Below, one piece after another: positions 4,881 through 64,000 of a stretch of 64,000 bases of DNA (position 1 is the first letter of the stretch; every line of letters starts with the position of its first letter). This stretch comes from Raillietiella orientalis. Lineage: Eukaryota. The notes under the pieces were generated by a model. That model saw only the letters and a program-made list of their open reading frames with translations. It did not search any database and was not told the DNA's origin. The position numbers were made by a program, and so were the translations under genes. The stretch is from NCBI GenBank assembly GCA_036172245.1, contig JAYWIR010000006.1, positions 5,456,001-5,520,000 on the forward strand, read 5' to 3'.

Positions 4881-5219
4881 CTTCGTCAAATACATCCTTT
4901 TCGATTTGGAGATTTGGAGATTTGCGCACGAGCCCAGAAGCCCACGGCACTGGATACGAGCATCTTCCTGCCCCCACAGTAGGGCGATCGGTCCGGTCTC
5001 CACGGGGACCCGGATTCGTCCCGACTGCGCCTCAAGCAGAGGACGGCACCCTGGTCTGCCGTGAAACTCCCTTCCGGCAACTCGGACAAACAGAGCTCTC
5101 GCGTCGAAGGGAATTCGTGGCCGCGCGTTCCTTTCGACCTGACGGATTCGCGCCCAACCGCAATGGTCAGCACCGATCTTCGCCCGGACATGCAGGGGCG
5201 TTTGTCCAAATTTGAAAGA

Positions 5220-5950
5220 AACTCACAGATTGTGGTGGGACACGTGATCTGTCCTACCATACTCGCCTAGTCCACGGACCTGCCGGGTCGCCGGTACGCA
5301 GACCGGCGGGGGTCACCTCGGCAGCGGATGGGGAGGTGGAGAAAACAAGAAGAAAAAGAAAGAGTGAACAAAAATAAATTAGAATCCTTGGAAGATCGGT
5401 ATGGGACCATTGTCCACTGGAGAGAGTCTGCATCCTTCCTAGGATGCCTACTAAGTCCGTCCGAATAGGTTCCAGGTGGGACCATCTGTCCGCCATGCCC
5501 AGAAAGACTGGATGGCATCTCTCCCGTTTCTTCCTCGGTAGGCTTCGCTACAAGCCGCCGCGATGCCTGCGGATGCAGCAGGGTGCTGCTGGGGCTGCAG
5601 CTGACTGCAGGGCGCCCCTCACGGAGAGGAGCCGTCAAACATACGATAAAAACAAATAACAACATCCGCGATCCGTAAGGTTAGTCGTTTTGAAGCGTTC
5701 CGACAGGGGCCAGAGGGCAACGCAGTCCACTGGCAGGCGCGGGAGGGATTCCCGTTCCCCGCATCCGAGACAGTCCGGCTCTCCTTAGCCAGCGTCGGCG
5801 ACTGTTGCAGGGAAGACCGAAGACCCCCCAGTGCAACAACAGAAGCTCTCCGACTCCTGCCACTTCAAGGGGAGGGCACTGCTGTCCACGAACACTGGGG
5901 GGCACTTCAAGTCCTCACCGAGAACGCTCAGTAGCACGCCTCAGCGTTGA
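5220..5950 (-). mobile_element. 3' end (ORF2 C-terminus, T-rich 3' UTR and stem-loop) of an L1/Tx1-like LINE inside the IR arm
   Basis: cagtgcaacaacagaag...cacttcaaggggagg (~5829-5878) is homologous to ~12606-12650; the GGQMVPP motif matches GSKMAPL and GNKMVPL in the other copies; stem-loop at 5291-5306. Confidence 0.7.
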
Positions 5951-6720
5951 AGGTCAAGTGGAAGGGAACTTGGGATGCGCGCAGTCCGCCCTTCGGCACT
6001 CACTGCGGAAGGTGCTCCGCCTGTTCTCGTGAAACCTCAGGTCTTGCGCTGTGCAGGTCGGTTTGCGGCCGTGAAGCCCGCTAGCGAGGGCACTATCCTC
6101 GCGCACCGCGTGAAGCGCCCGCACCAACGGCGCCGCGGCCGCTCGCCGGCGAGCTGGCGCCACGTGATCCGCTTAGCTTCACTGCAGCAGGCTAACCATC
6201 GGATAAACGGGCACGTGCACGAGGTTACCGCATGTTTTGACCGCGAGCGGTGCTAGAGGACCGCATCGGTTCCCCGGAGACAAATTCACGAAGGCCCTCC
6301 CTCCGTCCGTTTCCCGTACCTCGCCATGCTCAGCAGTTCCTCCCAGGGGCTCAGCGGAGATCGCCATCTCCGCTCGCGGAAACGCGCTGCATCCAGGCAG
6401 CGGCCGCGCGTCGAGGGCGTACCCACGGAAGAGGTCCCAGGGCAGTCGCGATGCGGCGGATGCTGGTGCGAGAGGGCGCGGCAAGCGAGCGACGCTGACG
6501 CTGATGGTCGACCCCTTGCGGAATGACTCGACCCTCCTCCCCTCCATCCCTCACGCACTGCGCCGTGAGCTGCGCCACTTCGCAGCCTCCACCCTCCGAA
6601 GGAACACAACAAGTGCAGTACGCAGAGCCTTTTTTATTCAGGGATGCCCCTCCCTCTTTCGCAGGCGCACGACGTTGCCTTCTCTCACGTCGGCTGCATC
6701 GCGGTCAGCGTAGAGATGAT

Positions 6721-8051
6721 TCACCGGCAGATTCTGCCCACGCAGCGCGGGGCTGACCGTGGACAGTCTCTGTTACTCCTACATATCGTAATTGAAGTGG
6801 GCCCCTCGATTATCGTGTACCTCTGTCCAGGTTTCTTCTGCCTCCTGCAAGAATCACCGAGGCGTCTCGGTGTACCAAGAGGGGGAGGGGGAAGGGGGGG
6901 TCGGCTCAACTTCCGAGCTTCGAGGCGCGAACCACGACACGCCCGCAGCGGCGGGCTGTGGGAACCTTCGCAACGACCGCAGCGTGCAGCCTCCGTTCCC
7001 AGCCCGGCATCGGAAGGGCGCGCAGGTCAGCGTACATGCAAACGACGGACCCCGCCGCGGACGCTCCTCCGCGCCCCATCACGAGGAGGACGCGGCCAAA
7101 CATAGCCCGGGGCGAAGGCTGACCTGGCGACCTCGCAGGGAGGCGCTGAAGTGCTCGGTGGCAGGCGGGCAAGAAGGATGCGGCGGAGAAAAGGAAACGA
7201 ATCTCCCGCGCGCCGAAACACCAAACTTTCCCCGCGCATCTTCCCGGAGAGGCTGTGGGAGACACCGCCTGCTTCCCGAGCGAAGGGCGGAAGGCGGTGC
7301 CCCCGCATCCTCCGGACCGCCCCACCGGCGCGAGGACGCCGCGCAGCAAACGTGGAAGGAGAAGCCGGGAAGCGGCGCGGGGAAGCCGAGCGCATTGCCG
7401 CGCCTACCGACACCCTCCCTCCCTCCGGAGGGGAGGGTGGCGGAGCTCTATCCGGAAGCTCGCGCGTCGCGGAGTAACGGAGGCACGCGCACCTCCGAAT
7501 GCGCTTCGTCTGCACTTCGGCCGCTCGGAAGGGTGCAGGCGGCGTCTTGCGCCGAACGTTGCCGTCAAAGGACGCCGCCCCAGGCGCACCCGGAAACGGC
7601 GCACGAAACACGCGCGGCAGCGGCCGCACAAAGGCTCGTCTTACGATGGGCCTTGCTTCCTCAATTCATTATCCGAGTCGTCGCCGCCGTCATCGCCGTC
7701 GTAGCCATTCCTGTCGCCCTCGTAATCATCCTCGTCGTAGTCGTCGTCGTCGTAATCGTCGCAAAGGACTTGCTTGGGGACCGTCACTGAAACATCCACA
7801 GCTGCGGGTCGCGGCCAACCACTCCCGGGGCCGGCCGGCCACCGCCGGACGCCGCGTCTGCTCCCACCGGGCACCCGAAGCGGAGCGAGTCGCGCTACTC
7901 GCCGCGGAGGTGGGCGCTGCCTTGTTGGCACGCGTCGACTTCCGCTCTTCGCCCCGGACAGGAGAGGTGGCGGCTCCGCGCCCGCTCCGCCTCACTTACG
8001 CAGCTGTAGAGCCACCAGTCCAAGGAGGAGCCAACCCAAGAGCGCTTTCAT
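6721..8051 (-). CDS. Small secreted acidic/cysteine-motif protein, spliced (exons 8051-8000, 7801-7645, 6844-6721); IR copy 1
   Basis: Mirror of 16604-17934; the mismatches noticed between the arms fall outside these three exons. Confidence 0.65.
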
Positions 8052-9739
8052 CGCGGCGGTTGCCTGGTCACCTTCGGGAGCGGTCGTGCGGGGAACAGAG
8101 GAACGGGCGATGCTTTTCCGATCGGAGCGGGAAGTTCGGGAAGGAGCGCTCGGTCCCGGCGGCCACGGCGGCTCCATTTATACCGCTCTGCCCCCGGGCA
8201 ACGGCGCGTCTCCCCGCCGCCGCTGACGCCGCGGTCTCGGATTTCGCGTGGAACCGGCCGGAGGCACCCGGAAATGAAGACCCCGAATCGCCCGCCGTGC
8301 GTGCGAGTGGCGCCTGGCGCGGGACACGCGTCCCGTTCCCTGAGGTCACGTCCGAATCTCACGCGCGTGGCCCGCGGGAGTGCGGATCCCTCTCCGAGCG
8401 CGGTCTCTCGAGCGGCGCAGAGGTGCGGGAGATCCCCGTGGCCGCGCTCCGTGAACGCACGAGTCCTTCCGCGTCCTTCTCGCCTGTCTGATCGCGCTAC
8501 AGCGGCCTGCGGGGATCCGGCGTGGCGGGTCGAGGAGGCGAAGGTTGGCAGAGCTGGCCTCTGCCCAGCTGCCGCCTGGCGTCCAGTTTTTCGTCCCGAG
8601 CTGCTCTTTGCCGGAAGCGCGGCGAACGGCTCGCCCGTCTGCAATGACCTCGAGGGGGGCGCGGATCGCGGCGCAGCGAACATTCGTCCAGCGCGCACGC
8701 ATCTGGGCGCCTCCTCCACCCGGCGCGTCCACCGGACCTCCCCGACAATTTCTGCTGCCCCGAGCAGGGCCGCGAGGCGGGCCCTTCAGTAGAGCGGTCC
8801 TTGGGTCCATCGTCCCGCAGGGTACGCCCTCACGATGCCGCTCCGCGAGCTCTCGCCCGCGAGTCGTTTCGCCTGCGAGGGGAGGCGTCCGCCGCCGGTC
8901 GATCGGAGGGAGAGGGGCAGCGGCACCGCCGACTTTCGCCTGTTGTCGTGTACGGAGGCCCGCCGGGCCGTTTCTGCTGCACTCCTGAGGAGGACGGATG
9001 GCCTAGCCTGGTGGTGGCTGCCACTCCCAACGTTGCCCTCTACTTCCGTTGCCCTGAAGGCGTGCACATTTGGGGCCCTCTGCCGGCGGCTGCATCAAGC
9101 GGAGTCGGGGGACGAGAGAGGTTGCTACAAGGTGGAGCCCGCGCGGGAGTTTCCCCGCTGCTACGGATGGGGGGAAGGGGGGGGGGGGGAGAAGCATCAA
9201 TTCGGTTCGCGGCCGTCGTCGCACCTACAGAACGCCGTCCTTGGAGTTGGTCCTTCCAGTTGGTGGAGGAAGTGGGGAGGGGGGTGACGCTGATGCCATA
9301 TTGCAGCACGCAGCGACCTTCCGTGTCCCAGCAACCCTGCCGCTCGAGCGCTCGCGAGTGCGCGCTGCCGCCAGGCCAACTCCCGGCGAGCTGCCCCAGC
9401 CACGAGGCGCAGCGCCTCTTGCGGAACGTCGCCGTTTGAAAGGATTGAATGGATCTGCCGTACTCATAGGTGTATGTGCATGAGTACATGTACACATGTG
9501 GATGCACACGATAGCAACGTGCACGTTTGTTGTGATCCTTCGAGGCTTTGCGCTCCAGGATACTTCGAACGCAACCCAGAGCGAAAAAATGGGGCAACCG
9601 AGCATGGGCGTCCGAGAAGGGACTTGTGACCTCAGGGTGATCTCTCACGTTCTCTCCCAAGCGAAGGAGGAGGGGGTCGTTTGCGCGAGGCGCGGAGGGT
9701 GCGCGGTTCCTCCCTTCTCGGCGTGATTTCTGGACACGT

Positions 9740-14964: not shown

Positions 14965-15719
14965 CATAAAAAAAAAATAAACACACACAATCTCTGTGCT
15001 GGGACCGGTGGTCCAACCACGCCCATTTCAAAGGGAACCTGCCAGGTAGCCTGTGCGCAGACCGATGAGATCCGTCACGGCATCACAGATGAAAGGGGCA
15101 AACAGAAAGAAAAGAAGGGAATAAAAATTAAAAAAATAAATAAATAAACTTGGTGGGGTTGCAGGAAGCAGTCACATCATGCTGGGGGGGGGGGGGAAGA
15201 TCCTCCGCATCTTTTCGAAGATGCCGGCAAGCTTTTGCTGCATGCTGTCCTTCAAGTGGAACCATCTTGTTACCATCCATCCTCAGGAAGCGGATGGCAA
15301 AGTGGATGCGGCAACCCTATCGCTCGGTCCTCACCCTTGTGTGACTCCACGCCGAGGCGATCGCATGTAGTCAGCAGGGGGCTGCTAGCGAGAATGCCTG
15401 CCAAAGGGTGTTTCGTAGGAGAAGGGGTCATAAAGCGTCGTTGCAGTTGCCACCGGGGGCTATAAGTAAAGCAGCAAGGCGTTCCCAGAGGGGTCGCGAG
15501 GCAGCCCAGTCCACAAGCAGTTTCTGGAGGGATTCCCACTTTTCTAACCTGCCACAGCTTGGGTGCACAAACCCCCCGTGTCCACTGATGCCGGGCATTG
15601 CAAAGGAGACCCAGGTGTGGCAGCATCAATGTCCGCTATTGCCACCTAATAGGAAAGGTGAGGGTGTACAAAAGCACTGGGGACCACTACAGAGAACAAA
15701 GGCACCCACCAACCGGCAG
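14965..15719 (-). mobile_element. Short 3' fragment of the same LINE family, cut at the right IR arm
   Basis: GLLCNARHQW and DGNKMVPLE are homologous to the other 3' ends; T-rich tail at 15100-15150. Confidence 0.65.
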
Positions 15720-16603
15720 AAGTCGGCGGTGCCGCTGCCCCTCTCCCTCCGATCGACCGGCGGCGGACGCCTCCCCTCGCAGGCGAAACGACTCGCGGGC
15801 GAGAGCTCGCGGAGCGGCATCGTGAGGGCGTACCCTGCGGGACGATGGACCCAAGGACCGCTCTACTGAAGGGCCCGCCTCGCGGCCCTGCTCGGGGCAG
15901 CAGAAATTGTCGGGGAGGTCCGGTGGACGCGCCGGGTGGAGGAGGCGCCCAGATGCGTGCGCGCTGGACGAATGTTCGCTGCGCCGCGATCCGCGCCCCC
16001 CTCGAGGTCATTGCAGACGGGCGAGCCGTTCGCCGCGCTTCCGGCAAAGAGCAGCTCGGGACGAAAAACTGGACGCCAGGCGGCAGCTGGGCAGAGGCCA
16101 GCTCTGCCAACCTTCGCCTCCTCGACCCGCCACGCCGGATCCCCGCAGGCCGCTGTAGCGCGATCAGACAGGCGAGAAGGACGCGGAAGGACTCGTGCGT
16201 TCACGGAGCGCGGCCACGGGGATCTCCCGCACCTCTGCGCCGCTCGAGAGACCGCGCTCGGAGAGGGATCCGCACTCCCGCGGGCCACGCGCGTGAGATT
16301 CGGACGTGACCTCAGGGAACGGGACGCGTGTCCCGCGCCAGGCGCCACTCGCACGCACGGCGGGCGATTCGGGGTCTTCATTTCCGGGTGCCTCCGGCCG
16401 GTTCCACGCGAAATCCGAGACCGCGGCGTCAGCGGCGGCGGGGAGACGCGCCGTTGCCCGGGGGCAGAGCGGTATAAATGGAGCCGCCGTGGCCGCCGGG
16501 ACCGAGCGCTCCTTCCCGAACTTCCCGCTCCGATCGGAAAAGCATCGCCCGTTCCTCTGTTCCCCGCACGACCGCTCCCGAAGGTGACCAGGCAACCGCC
16601 GCG

Positions 16604-17934
16604 ATGAAAGCGCTCTTGGGTTGGCTCCTCCTTGGACTGGTGGCTCTACAGCTGCGTAAGTGAGGCGGAGCGGGCGCGGAGCCGCCACCTCTCCTGTCCG
16701 GGGCGAAGAGCGGAAGTCGACGCGTGCCAACAAGGCAGCGCCCACCTCCGCGGCGAGTAGCGCGACTCGCTCCGCTTCGGGTGCCCGGTGGGAGCAGACG
16801 CGGCGTCCGGCGGTGGCCGGCCGGCCCCGGGAGTGGTTGGCCGCGACCCGCAGCTGTGGATGTTTCAGTGACGGTCCCCAAGCAAGTCCTTTGCGACGAT
16901 TACGACGACGACGACTACGACGAGGATGATTACGAGGGCGACAGGAATGGCTACGACGGCGATGACGGCGGCGACGACTCGGATAATGAATTGAGGAAGC
17001 AAGGCCCATCGTAAGACGAGCCTTTGTGCGGCCGCTGCCGCGCGTGTTTCGTGCGCCGTTTCCGGGTGCGCCTGGGGCGGCGTCCTTTGACGGCAACGTT
17101 CGGCGCAAGACGCCGCCTGCACCCTTCCGAGCGGCCGAAGTGCAGACGAAGCGCATTCGGAGGTGCGCGTGCCTCCGTTACTACGCGACGCGCGAGCTTC
17201 CGGATAGAGCTCCGCCACCCTCCCCTCCGGAGGGAGGGAGGGTGTCGGTAGGCGCGGCAATGCGCTCGGCTTCCCCGCGCCGCTTCCCGGCTTCTCCTTC
17301 CACGTTTGCTGCGCGGCGTCCTCGCGCCGGTGGGGCGGTCCGGAGGATGCGGGGGCACCGCCTTCCGCCCTTCGCTCGGGAAGCAGGCGGTGTCTCCCAC
17401 AGCCTCTCCGGGAAGATGCGCGGGGAAAGTTTGGTGTTTCGGCGCGCGGGAGATTCGTTTCCTTTTCTCCGCCGCATCCTTCTTGCCCGCCTGCCACCGA
17501 GCACTTCAGCGCCTCCCTGCGAGGTCGCCAGGTCAGCCTTCGCCCCGGGCTATGTTTGGCCGCGTCCTCCTCGTGATGGGGCGCGGAGGAGCGTCCGCGG
17601 CGGGGTCCGTCGTTTGCATGTACGCTGACCTGCGCGCCCTTCCGATGCCGGGCTGGGAACGGAGGCTGCACGCTGCGGTCGTTGCGAAGGTTCCCACAGC
17701 CCGCCGCTGCGGGCGTGTCGTGGTTCGCGCCTCGAAGCTCGGAAGTTGAGCCGACCCCCCCTTCCCCCTCCCCCTCTTGGTACACCGAGACGCCTCGGTG
17801 ATTCTTGCAGGAGGCAGAAGAAACCTGGACAGAGGTACACGATAATCGAGGGGCCCACTTCAATTACGATATGTAGGAGTAACAGAGACTGTCCACGGTC
17901 AGCCCCGCGCTGCGTGGGCAGAATCTGCCGGTGA
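16604..17934 (+). CDS. Small secreted acidic/cysteine-motif protein, spliced (exons 16604-16655, 16854-17010, 17811-17934; extra internal exons possible); IR copy 2
   Basis: MKALLGWLLLGLVALQL|gtaagt...cag|PVDVSVTVPKQVLCDDYDDDDYDEDDYEG...KQGPS|gtaaga...ttcttgcag|RQKKPGQRYTIIEGPTSITICRSNRDCPRSAPRCVGRICR*. Intron phases (1, then 2) join in frame; AATAAA at ~18017. Confidence 0.65.
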
Positions 17935-18704
17935 ATCATCTCTACGCTGACCGCGATGCAGCCGACGTGAGAGAAGGCAACGTCGTGCGCCTGCGAAAGA
18001 GGGAGGGGCATCCCTGAATAAAAAAGGCTCTGCGTACTGCACTTGTTGTGTTCCTTCGGAGGGTGGAGGCTGCGAAGTGGCGCAGCTCACGGCGCAGTGC
18101 GTGAGGGATGGAGGGGAGGAGGGTCGAGTCATTCCGCAAGGGGTCGACCATCAGCGTCAGCGTCGCTCGCTTGCCGCGCCCTCTCGCACCAGCATCCGCC
18201 GCATCGCGACTGCCCTGGGACCTCTTCCGTGGGTACGCCCTCGACGCGCGGCCGCTGCCTGGATGCAGCGCGTTTCCGCGAGCGGAGATGGCGATCTCCG
18301 CTGAGCCCCTGGGAGGAACTGCTGAGCATGGCGAGGTACGGGAAACGGACGGAGGGAGGGCCTTCGTGAATTTGTCTCCGGGGAACCGATGCGGTCCTCT
18401 AGCACCGCTCGCGGTCAAAACATGCGGTAACCTCGTGCACGTGCCCGTTTATCCGATGGTTAGCCTGCTGCAGTGAAGCTAAGCGGATCACGTGGCGCCA
18501 GCTCGCCGGCGAGCGGCCGCGGCGCCGTTGGTGCGGGCGCTTCACGCGGTGCGCGAGGATAGTGCCCTCGCTAGCGGGCTTCACGGCCGCAAACCGACCT
18601 GCACAGCGCAAGACCTGAGGTTTCACGAGAACAGGCGGAGCACCTTCCGCAGTGAGTGCCGAAGGGCGGACTGCGCGCATCCCAAGTTCCCTTCCACTTG
18701 ACCT

Positions 18705-19435
18705 TCAACGCTGAGGCGTGCTACTGAGCGTTCTCGGTGAGGACTTGAAGTGCCCCCCAGTGTTCGTGGACAGCAGTGCCCTCCCCTTGAAGTGGCAGGA
18801 GTCGGAGAGCTTCTGTTGTTGCACTGGGGGGTCTTCGGTCTTCCCTGCAACAGTCGCCGACGCTGGCTAAGGAGAGCCGGACTGTCTCGGATGCGGGGAA
18901 CGGGAATCCCTCCCGCGCCTGCCAGTGGACTGCGTTGCCCTCTGGCCCCTGTCGGAACGCTTCAAAACGACTAACCTTACGGATCGCGGATGTTGTTATT
19001 TGTTTTTATCGTATGTTTGACGGCTCCTCTCCGTGAGGGGCGCCCTGCAGTCAGCTGCAGCCCCAGCAGCACCCTGCTGCATCCGCAGGCATCGCGGCGG
19101 CCTGTAGCGAAGCCTACCGAGGAAGAAACGGGAGAGATGCCATCCAGTCTTTCTGGGCATGGCGGACAGATGGTCCCACCTGGAACCTATTCGGACGGAC
19201 TTAGTAGGCATCCTAGGAAGGATGCAGACTCTCTCCAGTGGACAATGGTCCCATACCGATCTTCCAAGGATTCTAATTTATTTTTGTTCACTCTTTCTTT
19301 TTCTTCTTGTTTTCTCCACCTCCCCATCCGCTGCCGAGGTGACCCCCGCCGGTCTGCGTACCGGCGACCCGGCAGGTCCGTGGACTAGGCGAGTATGGTA
19401 GGACAGATCACGTGTCCCACCACAATCTGTGAGTT
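18705..19435 (+). mobile_element. LINE 3' end, mirror copy of 5220-5950
   Basis: Lies inside the right IR arm; stem-loop ccggt-ctgcgt-accgg at 19349-19364. Confidence 0.7.
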
Positions 19436-19739
19436 TCTTTCAAATTTGGACAAACGCCCCTGCATGTCCGGGCGAAGATCGGTGCTGACCATTGCGGTTG
19501 GGCGCGAATCCGTCAGGTCGAAAGGAACGCGCGGCCACGAATTCCCTTCGACGCGAGAGCTCTGTTTGTCCGAGTTGCCGGAAGGGAGTTTCACGGCAGA
19601 CCAGGGTGCCGTCCTCTGCTTGAGGCGCAGTCGGGACGAATCCGGGTCCCCGTGGAGACCGGACCGATCGCCCTACTGTGGGGGCAGGAAGATGCTCGTA
19701 TCCAGTGCCGTGGGCTTCTGGGCTCGTGCGCGATCCCGA

Positions 19740-61500: not shown

Positions 61501-62893
61501 AAATGTTTTATATCCACTCCCTTGGTTTGCGAACGCTTTGTCATATTCTCGGGCTAACGCTTCGCTTTCAAAAGGCAATGGGCATCGTGCTGACGACAAC
61601 TTTGCCTTTGCCGAGAGCATCAGCAGTAATACAATCAAATTCTCCTAGAAAACAACACAAAGAGTTAGAAGAACACATCAACAACACACACATTGCTGCA
61701 TTTCTTTGCATGCAATAAAGGTTTTTCCCATTTGTGTGCGCATGCCGGCAGTGAGAAAAAAGAAAAAAGGCAGCAGCAGCAGCAACACCGGTTCCTTAAA
61801 AGACTTGCGCAAGATCACTTGCAAAAAAACAAAATGGCGCGGCTGAACCGTGCAGAAGCGAAACTGGAAAAGGCAACAACAATAGAAGGCAATCAATATC
61901 ATACATATCATACATAACAATGGAAGGAAATGCGTCACTGCCAGGCTCTCTCTCTCTCTCTCTGGATTTCCCACGGGTTGCTCTTAGCGTGAAACGAAAA
62001 CGATTTTGGAAAATTAAAAATCCCGAGGGAGCCATCACTGTGTGTGGTGACCCCGGTAAGATCCGAACTTGCTTCCGATCTCACTTCCCCCTCCCTATCT
62101 GGGAGTTCTTGAGATTCTGCATATCTGCATCTTCGGATCCCCCCGCCCATCCCAGGAATGGAACCTTAAAAAAAAAAAAATAACATGCGCTCATTCATGC
62201 GAATTCCATATGCAACCGAAGCATATGAGAGTGAGTATCCAATTACAAAAATATGGAAATTTAAAAAAAAGGAATTTTTTGTTTTGTTTCTTGTTCAAAT
62301 TTCTTGTTTCCCTTCGTTTCCGACATTCAAATGGGAACGAACCTCAGGAAATGAAAAATTGCATTTCGCATATCCAATTTCCAATCCGTCAAGTCAAGAT
62401 CACTGCTGTCTCTCCCCCCCCCCCCTCCTCCTTCCTTTTTTCAAGTTTCCTGGAAGTATATTGCAGGGATACCCAGGCATCTGTGATAAATGTCTCTGAA
62501 GAGTGTGCCGAATAATCTTGGCCTATATAACGCCCAAGGGGTGAAATATCCCACTGATAAGATTCGCTTCCTTGATGACAGAAAAATTACGGTTGAAACT
62601 GTTGCAAACACACGACTTCGAAGTAGGAGTATGCATGATGTGCTTTATTATAAGCTCCTTCGTTTGTTAGGTTATGGTTAATGTACTTTCTGCTTCCAGT
62701 TATGTGTTCACAGGCAGAATAAACGTTACATATATCCTCAGATAGGCACTTTTGAAATAGGGATTTCTATCCGCAGATAATTTGATTATCATTTCGCGCA
62801 ATTTATGCAATTCTCTTATTTCTGTGGCCATTTTCTGCAGTCCTTCCGTTAATGCCGCTTGAGATATTAGTAGTGCTTGCTTAAATGTTATAA

Positions 62894-63265
62894 ATGGTCA
62901 TAATGAAACGAGTGGATGTTTCACTATTATGGTATTTTGGTGTACGTGGTATACGTTTTTATTCTCGAGCTTATATTCGAAGAACGGAGAATTTATATGG
63001 TGGTTACGTGGAGAAGTATTTCCGATGTCCGTGGTTAGACAGTGGTTCTGGTGTAGGTCTTGACCATGAGTTGAATTGTGAGATGTTTATGAATCGTTTG
63101 CATGTGATGAAGCATATGTCTGGTGTGGATAGCATCAAATCGGGTTGTCAAGGTGGTGTGTGTCCAAAAAACGGCTCGATGACTCAAGGATATCCAATAT
63201 TCAGACTGACGAGAAAGTACTATGTGCAATTTAAGCACTTGAGAGACCCTTCCTTGTATAATTGA
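62894..63265 (+). pseudogene. cap: Endogenous CRESS-DNA virus capsid C-terminal fragment (circovirus/cyclovirus-like)
   Basis: YFRCPWLDSGSGVGLDH...YPIFRLTRKYYVQFKHLRDPSLYN* parallels the circovirus capsid ending (PCV2-type WL...VDH...YNIRVTMYVQFREFNLKDPPL); intronless AT-rich island. Confidence 0.7.
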
Positions 63266-63374
63266 ATATAAAAAAACTTTGTCAACAATGTTTTATTGAT
63301 CAATACTTTGTGAAGGGGGTGATAATGTGGAGCATGAGGGGTCAGGCGAGTCGCGGGCTTGAAGGGCAAGCCCA

Positions 63375-63550
63375 CTATTGTCCAAGTATAGAAGCATCAA
63401 ATCTGGAGATGTCACGTACATTCCATCGATCATTGGACATTTTATCATAGTTGGAGAATATGATGTGGGGTGGTTCAAAGTACTTGATACTGCCTTGATA
63501 TTTGGAGGCGAAGATGATACCACTTTTTAGTACTAATTGCTTTTTCAATT
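63375..63550 (-). pseudogene. rep: Endogenous CRESS-DNA virus Rep, SF3 helicase C-terminal fragment
   Basis: LKSGIIFASKYQGSIKYFEPPHIIFSNYDKMSNDRWNVRDI matches the K.G.I.S.KY...K.F.PPH...F.N...S.DRW signature (motif B', motif C, Arg finger) of nanovirus/alphasatellite-type Reps; 5'-truncated. Confidence 0.8.
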
Positions 63551-63589
63551 GCGACTGATTTTCTGTGTTTGTTCTCTCGTTCAAGCGCC

Positions 63590-63780
63590 AAAAAGGCCAG
63601 TAGCGACCCCACGAGGAGATCGTTACTATTGGCCTAGGACGATGGTAATCCTTGGGTTCTTCTTTTTCTTCTGTCTTCGCTGTTTTCCTTCCAGCTTTTT
63701 TTTTTAAGAGTTTTCTTTTTTTTGGTTCGCTAAGTACCTCAGAGCCGGTCGCGTGCCTCGCGGCGCGCGTGGCTCTTTTT
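63590..63780 (+). mobile_element. Possible LINE 3' end abutting the viral fragment
   Basis: T-rich tract followed by the hairpin agagcc-ggtcgcgtgcc...-ggctct, the same order as the LINE 3' ends at 5-19 kb. Confidence 0.3.
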
Positions 63781-64000
63781 AAACATTAACACACTGTTTT
63801 GTTTCCACGCCTGTCCGCGGCAACCCGCAGGGGGGGGCGTGTAATTCTTCAGTGTAATATTCTTCAGGATAGGGGGCACCCCGGGATGGGGTCCGCCCTA
63901 TTGAATCCAGGAAGGGCTCGGAGTCCGTTCCTCTCACGCTTGGGGAGGGGATCCCCCCCGGAAGGGGGGGATCTCACCTCCCACCCTGGTTGTCTCCGAA

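What the first reader, a model, noticed from the sequence alone, without database searches (positions are those of the whole stretch)
62480..63560. Endogenous ambisense CRESS-DNA virus: circovirus-like capsid converging on a nanovirus-type Rep
Seen: an intronless AT-rich island in which a + ORF ends ...FRLTRKYYVQFKHLRDPSLYN* (63265) and a - ORF ends ...KSGIIFASKYQGSIKYFEPPHIIFSNYDKMSNDRW... (stop at 63375). They are separated by a ~110-nt 3' intergenic region with opposing polyA-like signals (aatataaaa on +, AATAAA on - at 63292-63297) and a 7-bp hairpin (63355-63373). Known: this tail-to-tail layout is typical of ambisense CRESS genomes, YVQF is a circoviral capsid C-terminal motif, and KY...PPH...DRW is a nanovirus/alphasatellite-type Rep tail. 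Inference: this is an integrated fossil of a Rep/Cap combination that may be an unclassified lineage, and it would link that lineage to a host.
Basis: partly seen in the sequence, partly recalled or inferred. Interest (0 to 1): 0.85.

Follow-up and report, generated by a model that had tools for sequence, protein, structure and literature searches.

The report
Short fossil of a CRESS-virus Rep gene
A roughly 150-base remnant of the tail end of a small circular DNA virus's replication gene sits in this eukaryotic-looking DNA, but the neighbouring "capsid" reading frame shows no sign of being viral, so this is an ordinary viral fossil and not a buried whole virus.

Summary
The minus-strand frame that stops at 63375 is the C-terminal ~46-54 codons of a CRESS-DNA virus Rep. 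An exhaustive phmmer search of 1.84 billion proteins gave 17 hits at E<=1e-3, the best at 1.5e-10, and 9 of the 17 carry Pfam Viral_Rep. A Rep profile built from 81 relatives hits the window only here (E 4.5e-13 among 2,514 six-frame segments). The tail is not the circovirus type. The one named relative belongs to Mulpavirales, the order that holds the nanoviruses.

Only the tail survives. The 84 codons upstream score like shuffled sequence. No HUH or Walker motifs were found, and there is no in-frame ATG before codon 116.

The plus-strand ORF read as a circovirus-like capsid got no support from any test:
- Pfam and PDB searches.
- Word search and a viral-contig scan.
- 3,357 ORFs from 151 related CRESS contigs.
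- Capsid-cluster HMMs and hhalign.
- ESM Atlas and AlphaFold, with pLDDT 40.

Stop-free frames of that length are common locally.

Verdict: an endogenous CRESS Rep fragment, which is a known kind of element. An integrated ambisense Rep/Cap genome is not shown.

The parts
63396..63533 (-). Rep-derived segment: the C-terminal end of a CRESS-DNA virus replication protein, from just before helicase motif C to the DRW tail. These are residues 85-130 of the 136-codon frame.
   Evidence: phmmer against 1.84 billion proteins gave 17 hits at E<=1e-3, best 1.5e-10, and 9 of the 17 carry PF02407. BLASTP to P0001 covers residues 85-130 and to P0002 residues 86-126 (52% identity). My own Rep HMM aligns residues 86-129 to profile positions 242-290 of 317, E 4.5e-13.
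63375..63377 (-). Stop codon (TAG) of the Rep frame, 15 codons after the DRW motif, about where the relatives' proteins end.
63534..63785 (-). Upstream continuation of the open frame (84 codons) with no detectable Rep similarity. It is partly a T-poor (on the - strand) K/E-rich tract in which stop codons cannot easily arise.
   Evidence: Scored against the Rep HMM at -0.3 bits; 196 of 497 scored shuffles did at least as well. Base counts for 63640-63735 on + are A 9, T 53 of 96. AT skew is -0.33 to -0.44. The only in-frame ATG is codon 116.
63353..63375 (.). GC-rich hairpin directly after the Rep stop (9 bp including one G-T; perfect 7-bp core at 63355-63373; 5-nt loop). Its role is unknown. 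It is not an origin-type stem-loop.
   Evidence: z -3.42, 0 of 200 shuffles. It is not a lineage feature: 11 of 132 relatives (8.3%) and 6.5% of 660 control windows fold as strongly in the 45 nt after the stop.
63292..63297 (-). AATAAA hexamer 78-83 nt downstream of the Rep stop.
   Evidence: Read. No test of use was possible.
62894..63265 (+). 123-codon ORF converging on the Rep tail. No support was found, and it is most likely a chance ORF.

Best explanation
A piece of a circular Rep-encoding ssDNA (CRESS) virus genome was captured in this chromosome, and only the last ~46-54 codons of its rep gene (window ~63396-63533, minus strand, stop at 63375-63377) remain recognisable.

Shown:
- The segment is homologous to the C-terminal end of the SF3-helicase half of Reps from uncultivated CRESS viruses whose one named member is in Mulpavirales.
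- Nothing else in the 64-kb window matches a Rep profile.
- The 84 codons upstream in the same frame are indistinguishable from shuffled sequence.
- There is no in-frame ATG ahead of the homologous part.

Inferred:
- With no endonuclease domain, no Walker A/B and no start codon, the stub cannot act as a replication protein. It is an inert molecular fossil, left by illegitimate recombination of viral DNA in the nucleus and later truncated or deleted.
- The converging + ORF (62894-63265) is most likely a chance open frame in host or unrecognisable DNA, not a capsid gene.
For: Rep homology:
- 17 proteins at E<=1e-3 among 1,835,955,588, best 1.5e-10.
- 9 of those 17 carry Pfam Viral_Rep PF02407. 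Of the other 8, 6 are shorter than 200 aa.
- In the alignment the window keeps the invariant K, G, K, Y, P, F, N, S, D, R, W columns.
- A Rep HMM from 81 relatives hits only this frame (E 4.5e-13; the next best of 2,514 six-frame segments has E 0.94).
- Against 71 stored relatives the match always falls on residues ~81-135 of the frame.

Truncation:
- The upstream 84 residues score -0.3 bits, and 196 of 497 shuffles do at least as well.
- The only in-frame ATG is codon 116.

Lineage:
- P0026, named by its source as Rakkovirus canuewis Rep, aligns at 36% over 50 aa with pairwise E 8e-9.
- Its lineage is Mulpavirales/Anicreviridae.
- Profile A1 matches the 314-aa PCV2 Rep chain 7lar_A only at chain residues 11-173.

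Capsid negatives:
- Pfam at E<=10 gave nothing viral.
- PDB phmmer at E<=10 gave 4 unrelated chains.
- The word-index search of longer proteins gave no hit among 46 candidates.
- The viral-contig scan gave none.
- phmmer --max against 3,357 ORFs from 151 related CRESS contigs had best E 3.2.
- 29 capsid-cluster HMMs against window 61800-63400 had best E 0.089, and that was not on this ORF.
- hhalign against 10 capsid alignments had best probability 0.3%, and 17 of 20 shuffles scored higher.
- ESM Atlas recognition was 1131 with no usable hit.
- AlphaFold mean pLDDT was 40.

Background:
- 15 stop-free frames of >=123 codons lie in 40-64 kb.
- Literature: in a survey of eukaryotic genomes, 302 of 305 CRESS-like endogenous matches were Rep and 3 were capsid, and many were gene fragments (PMC3198968, passages).
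Against: - An ORF of >=123 codons ending within ~110-300 nt of the Rep stop on the opposite strand has a local chance of only about 0.03-0.09 (my estimate). That is the layout expected of an ambisense genome.
- GC skew is positive over ~62500-63500, unlike the left flank, so a ~1-kb block including the + ORF could have one foreign origin.
- The spacer holds an unusually stable hairpin.
- CRESS capsids are so diverse (77 candidate capsids of the relatives fell into 29 clusters) that failing to find similarity cannot exclude a capsid.
- The two deletions in the tail relative to all relatives are both in frame, which could hint at some retained constraint.
- Integration itself rests on the assembly alone. 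No genome is held and no sequencing run was listed.
- The window ends 215 nt beyond the open frame, so further Rep pieces outside it cannot be excluded.
Confidence: 0.75

Rival explanations
1. The whole ~1.2-kb block (~62450-63650) is the remnant of one integrated ambisense CRESS genome. In this reading it holds the Rep 3' end, the 3' intergenic spacer with a hairpin and polyA signals, and a capsid gene of a lineage too divergent to recognise, of which the 123-codon + ORF is the C-terminal half.
For: - Tail-to-tail layout with a 109-nt spacer.
- The local chance of such an ORF so placed is about 0.03-0.09.
- A positive GC-skew block covers both frames.
- Hairpin z is -3.42.
- Ambisense order is common in the relatives: the longest non-Rep ORF of >=200 aa lies on the opposite strand in 38 of 69 loci.
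- Capsids of the relatives are very diverse, forming 29 clusters from 77.
Against: - No similarity at any level to any capsid.
- Atlas recognition of 1131 is in the range of shuffled sequences.
- pLDDT is 40.
- No basic N-terminal arm appears in any + frame upstream, and those frames are full of stops.
- Two equally long + frames lie just upstream (61800-62180 and 62060-62512) that nobody would call viral.
- Capsid-derived endogenous elements were 3 of 305 in the survey read (PMC3198968).
- The hairpin is not a feature of the relatives.
Confidence: 0.12
2. The Rep tail is the last exon, or the coding end, of a host gene that has co-opted part of a viral helicase and is expressed.
For: - The frame is open for 136 codons, and both deletions relative to relatives are in frame.
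- An AATAAA lies 78-83 nt after the stop.
- Co-opted, expressed Rep-like genes are reported in eukaryotes (PMC3198968, abstract and passages).
Against: - There is no in-frame ATG before codon 116.
- The upstream codons are not Rep-like, and their openness is explained by a T-poor tract.
- The nearly invariant Y and E columns just upstream of the match are lost.
- No Pfam family was found in any of the 184 other long frames of the window that were scanned, so no gene context is visible.
Confidence: 0.06
3. Assembly chimera or contaminant: viral reads were wrongly joined to host sequence.
For: Junction-spanning reads could not be examined. No genome is held.
Against: - Only ~140-160 nt is viral-like. 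It is flanked on both sides by non-viral sequence, truncated, and lacks the rest of a 2-4-kb genome.
- A contaminating CRESS virus would assemble as its own small circle, like the 151 loci fetched.
Confidence: 0.04

Closest known systems
CRESS-DNA-like endogenous viral elements (Rep-derived fragments in eukaryotic genomes; Liu et al. 2011, PMC3198968; Rosario et al. 2018, PMC6186406)
   Same: A Rep-derived, truncated piece lying in non-coding DNA. [quoted passage not shown]
   Different: This one is very short (~46-54 codons, C-terminal end only). Its host is not identified. Whether this locus is already listed in those papers' supplementary tables was not checked (supplements not opened).
Reps of uncultivated CRESS viruses related to Rakkovirus canuewis (Anicreviridae, Mulpavirales) and proteins P0002-P0017
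   Same: It shares the C-terminal block K(N/D)GIxF(S/A)xKY....(F/Y).PPH(V/I)I.F(A/S)N.....(L/M)S.DRW.(I/V)..I, at 39-57% identity over 41-51 residues.
   Different: It lacks the HUH endonuclease domain and Walker A/B. It has a 1-residue and a 4-residue gap relative to all 16 aligned relatives.
Nanoviridae / Alphasatellitidae Rep
   Same: Same order as the one named relative. A tail ending in S.DR is recalled for nanovirus M-Rep; this is recall and comes from no call.
   Different: No nanovirus or alphasatellite sequence was compared directly here, so family-level membership is untested.
Circoviridae genomes and endogenous circoviral elements (Cap, Pfam PF02443; Rep as in PDB 7lar)
   Same: Converging Rep and second ORF with a short spacer. 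The C-terminal letters R.T..YVQF...(K/R)DP.L resemble the PCV2 capsid end as I recall it (recall, not a call).
   Different: There is no Pfam Circo_capsid match at E<=10 and no PDB capsid match at E<=10. The Rep-tail clade does not align to the circovirus helicase half.

Membership tests
CRESS-DNA virus Rep (Cressdnaviricota) | Significant sequence similarity to Rep proteins | tested here: met
   17 hits at E<=1e-3, best 1.5e-10, and 9 of 17 with PF02407. Own Rep HMM E 4.5e-13.
CRESS-DNA virus Rep (Cressdnaviricota) | HUH endonuclease domain (motifs I-III) | tested here: not met
   No other segment among the window's 2,514 six-frame segments matches the Rep HMM (next best E 0.94). Sequence beyond base 64000 could not be seen.
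CRESS-DNA virus Rep (Cressdnaviricota) | SF3 helicase Walker A and B motifs | tested here: not met
   The upstream 84 codons score like shuffles (196 of 497 at least as good). The by-eye 'GRKT' remnant is unsupported.
Mulpavirales / nanovirus-type Rep tail | Closest named relatives lie in that order, and the tail is unlike the circovirus helicase end | tested here: inconclusive
   One named relative (Rakkovirus, Anicreviridae) at 36% over 50 aa. Profile A1 aligns to PCV2 Rep only in the N-terminal domain. No tree with reference Nanoviridae or Alphasatellitidae was built, and ~46 residues would resolve little.
Circovirus capsid (Pfam PF02443 Circo_capsid) | Match to the family profile or to solved circovirus capsids | tested here: not met
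   hmmscan at E<=10 returned only DUF1563 at E 0.24. PDB phmmer at E<=10 returned 4 unrelated chains. That the PDB holds circovirus capsids is recalled, not checked.
Circovirus capsid (Pfam PF02443 Circo_capsid) | Arginine-rich N-terminal arm and jelly-roll fold | tested here: inconclusive
   No basic arm appears in any + frame of 62400-62900. The AlphaFold single-sequence model has pLDDT 40 and is unusable for fold search.
Integrated ambisense CRESS genome | Both Rep and Cap recognisable, plus an origin stem-loop with a NANTATTAC nonamer in its loop | tested here: not met
   Cap is not recognisable. The spacer hairpin loop is 5 nt, CCCTT on the - strand. The only nonamer-like site nearby, GAATATTAC at 63854-63862 (-), is unpaired between two hairpins and not in a loop. 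The nonamer consensus is recalled.

The most novel reading that the evidence does not exclude
The ~1.2-kb block 62450-63650 is one integrated ambisense CRESS genome remnant. Its Mulpavirales-like Rep tail is paired with a capsid of a so-far unrecognised lineage (the + ORF). This would tie that virus group to this unidentified eukaryotic host and give a first sequence for its capsid.
Probability: 0.1. Interest if true: 0.45.

Novelty: new member of a known kind. Interest (0 to 1): 0.25.

Why it matters
Endogenous Rep fragments are one of the few ways to tie uncultivated CRESS viruses to hosts. Papers seen only as abstracts in a search listing use Rep-like host sequences for exactly that (PMC7493932, PMC9615429). 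This fragment shows that a virus of the clade with the KNGIxFSxKY...PPH...S.DRW tail once had access to the germ line, or the clonal line, of this organism. Its value is limited because the piece is ~46-54 codons long, inert, not datable from one copy, and the host is not identified here. The more exciting claim, a new Rep/Cap combination, is not borne out.

Tried and rejected
- **Upstream helicase remnant.** By eye I aligned the upstream frame to a helicase (Y.RP, WGRY, 'GRKT' as a Walker A remnant, 'EPKKRKLL' against 'EPDDRKII'). Rejected: the upstream 84 residues score like shuffles.
- **Pfam on the Rep frame and 16 neighbouring small ORFs.** Nothing viral.
- **PDB phmmer on the Rep frame.** Only MACROD2 at E 0.19, which is chance.
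- **Word-index search of longer proteins with the Rep frame.** No hit among 230 candidates.
- **Viral-contig scans with each single ORF.** None.
- **ESM Atlas on the Rep stub.** Recognition 2424; best hits were RepB-like primase fragments at 0.87. Treated as a lead only and not used.
- **Inverted or direct terminal repeats around the block.** Only low-complexity matches.
- **Hairpin as a conserved post-Rep element.** Not enriched in relatives (RNA parameters were used there).
- **Origin nonamer.** 4 matches in the window against 2.0 expected. The nearby one is not in a hairpin loop.
- **+ ORF as a reversed Rep motif II piece (YVQF).** The Rep HMM gives no hit there.
- **Host identification.**
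  - No genome is held.
  - No Pfam family in 34 + 150 long frames.
  - No Rfam family.
  - Frames of 1-20.6 kb shorter than 150 aa were not scanned.
- **Sequencing runs.** None was listed, and no RNA holder was listed.
- **The listing of cluster members.** Could not be made.
- **Earlier findings of this scan.** Nothing.

Full report
**What is there.**
- The + ORF 62894..63265 (123 aa) ends ...FRLTRKYYVQFKHLRDPSLYN*.
- The - frame stops at 63375-63377 (TAG) and reads ...KSGIIFASKYQGSIKYFEPPHIIFSNYDKMSNDRWNVRDISRFDASILGQ*.
- The - frame is open stop to stop for 136 codons, up to 63785.
- The spacer folds better than all 200 shuffles (z -3.42).
'AT-rich island' holds only against the right flank.

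**The Rep tail is real.**
- First-pass searches found nothing: Pfam at E<=10, PDB phmmer, a word-index search and a viral-contig scan with the single protein.
- An exhaustive phmmer search of 92 residues (63378-63653, -) against 1,835,955,588 representative proteins gave 17 hits at E<=1e-3, the best at 1.5e-10.
- Nine of the 17 carry Pfam Viral_Rep (PF02407), four of them also RNA_helicase. Of the eight without it, six are fragments under 200 aa.
- In the alignment the window keeps every invariant column of the relatives' C-terminal block: K, G, K, Y, P, F, N, S, D, R, W.
- I fetched 80 viral contigs (140 of 175 pattern matches confirmed, best 80 kept) and 71 metagenome contigs (72 of 274 confirmed) that encode such Reps.
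- A Rep HMM built from 72 of their ORFs plus 9 full-length proteins (317 positions) hits the window in one place only. That place is residues 86-129 of this frame, aligned to profile positions 242-290, at E 4.5e-13. The next best of 2,514 six-frame segments has E 0.94.

**Only the tail is there.**
- BLASTP and phmmer alignments to all 71 stored relatives fall on residues ~81-135 of the frame, that is window ~63396-63533.
- By eye I had aligned the upstream part to Walker A/B and the 'EPxxRKII' lead-in. That does not survive a test: the upstream 84 residues score -0.3 bits against the Rep HMM, and 196 of 497 scored shuffles do at least as well.
- The openness of the upstream frame is largely compositional. 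The + strand of 63640-63735 has 9 A in 96 bases, so the - strand has almost no T for stop codons.
- The only in-frame ATG is codon 116, inside the homologous part.
- The stub therefore has no endonuclease domain, no nucleotide-binding motifs and no start. I infer it is inert.

**Which kind of Rep.**
- The relatives share K(N/D)GIxFSxKY...PPHVIVFAN...S.DRW.I..I.
- One relative, found through P0001, is named by its source as the Rep of Rakkovirus canuewis. NCBI taxonomy places it in Anicreviridae, Mulpavirales. It aligns to the window at 36% over 50 aa.
- A profile of alignment A1 (16 relatives plus the window row) matches the 314-residue PCV2 Rep chain 7lar_A only over chain residues 11-173, not its helicase half.
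- This agrees with the statement in PMC3198968 (passages) that nanovirus-like Reps part company with circovirus-like ones in the C-terminal region.
No nanovirus or alphasatellite sequence was compared directly.

**The capsid claim fails every test I could run.**
- Pfam at E<=10 gave only DUF1563 at 0.24.
- PDB phmmer at E<=10 gave four unrelated chains.
- The word-index search of proteins of 217-2000 aa scored none of its 46 candidates.
- The viral-contig scan gave none.
- phmmer --max against 1,349 ORFs of the 80 viral contigs had best E 1.7. Against 3,357 ORFs of all 151 contigs the best was E 3.2.
- Thirty six-frame segments of 62300-63300 against the same ORFs had best E 0.012, and that was not on this ORF.
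- The 77 longest non-Rep ORFs (>=150 aa) of the viral contigs clustered into 29 groups. Their HMMs against 61800-63400 gave best E 0.089, again not on this ORF.
- hhalign against the 10 multi-sequence clusters gave at best 0.3% probability, and 17 of 20 shuffled queries scored higher.
- ESM Atlas recognition was 1131 (shuffled-like) with no usable hit.
- AlphaFold without an alignment gave pLDDT 40, so no fold search was made.
- The + frames upstream (62400-62900) are broken by stops and show no basic arm.
- 'YVQF' occurs in the 346,026 residues of the relatives' ORFs only twice, both in Rep motif II, HLQGYVQF.
- Frames this long are common in this part of the window: 15 in 24 kb, two of them just upstream on the same strand.

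**What still speaks for a larger viral remnant.**
- The ORF's placement has a local chance of roughly 0.03-0.09 (my estimate).
- GC skew is positive over ~62500-63500.
- The hairpin is unusually stable, though such hairpins are no more frequent after the Rep stops of relatives (11 of 132) than at control positions (6.5% of 660).
- A NANTATTAC-like nonamer, GAATATTAC, lies at 63854-63862 on the Rep strand, but it is one of 4 matches against 2.0 expected and is not in a hairpin loop.
- No terminal repeats bound the block.
- CRESS capsids are diverse enough that a negative cannot be final. I put this reading at about 0.1.

**Context and limits.**
- The host is unknown. No genome is held, no Pfam family was found in 184 long frames, and no Rfam family was found.
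- Integration rests on the assembly alone. No run was listed, and the listing of cluster members could not be made; both are recorded under Tried and rejected.
- Reps of this clade also sit on long contigs elsewhere (333,537, 396,535 and 5,389,944 bp), so integration of this clade is not unique to this window.

**Comparison with what is known, and verdict.**
- Rep-derived endogenous elements of CRESS viruses are well documented across eukaryotes. They are mostly Rep (302 of 305 matches against 3 capsid), often fragments, and lie in non-coding DNA (PMC3198968, passages; PMC6186406, passages).
- This is a new, very short member of that known kind.
- Interest is 0.25.

Noticed in passing
window 4924-8945 and 15710-19731: A 4,022-nt inverted repeat, 100% complementary, with 6,764 nt between the arms, in the GC-rich (0.59-0.70) part of the window. 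Its long ORFs have no Pfam family. It could be a recent palindromic duplication or an assembly artefact.
   Followed up: no
P0001 (354 aa; best hit): This protein consists of two tandem copies of the helicase half of this Rep clade, with no endonuclease domain and no Viral_Rep hit. It sits on a 3,901-bp contig that its source labels as a bacterial MAG, which looks like a mis-binned or rearranged CRESS contig.
   Followed up: partly
window 63840-63867 (- strand nonamer at 63854-63862): GAATATTAC, which fits the recalled CRESS origin nonamer NANTATTAC, lies on the Rep strand inside a 13-15-nt tandem direct repeat (CTGAAGAAT(AT)TACAC x2). It lies 69 nt upstream of the open frame. It is unpaired between two GC-rich hairpins, not in a loop. 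The region 63800-63910 folds with z -3.67.
   Followed up: partly
window 20696-58018 and the frames of >=150 aa across the whole window: None of the 150 + 34 long stop-free frames scanned has a Pfam family at the thresholds used, and no Rfam family reaches its gathering score in 64 kb. The window looks gene-poor, or its genes have short exons.
   Followed up: partly
P0028, P0034, P0031, P0037: Relatives of this Rep clade are encoded on contigs of 333,537, 396,535 and 5,389,944 bp. They are presumably integrated copies in cellular genomes, and could serve for host linkage of the clade.
   Followed up: no
window 62158-62180, 62410-62440, 63640-63730: Long homopolymer or homopyrimidine tracts (A13, C12-rich, T-rich) bracket the block that holds the two ORFs. 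No target-site duplication or terminal repeat was found.
   Followed up: partly
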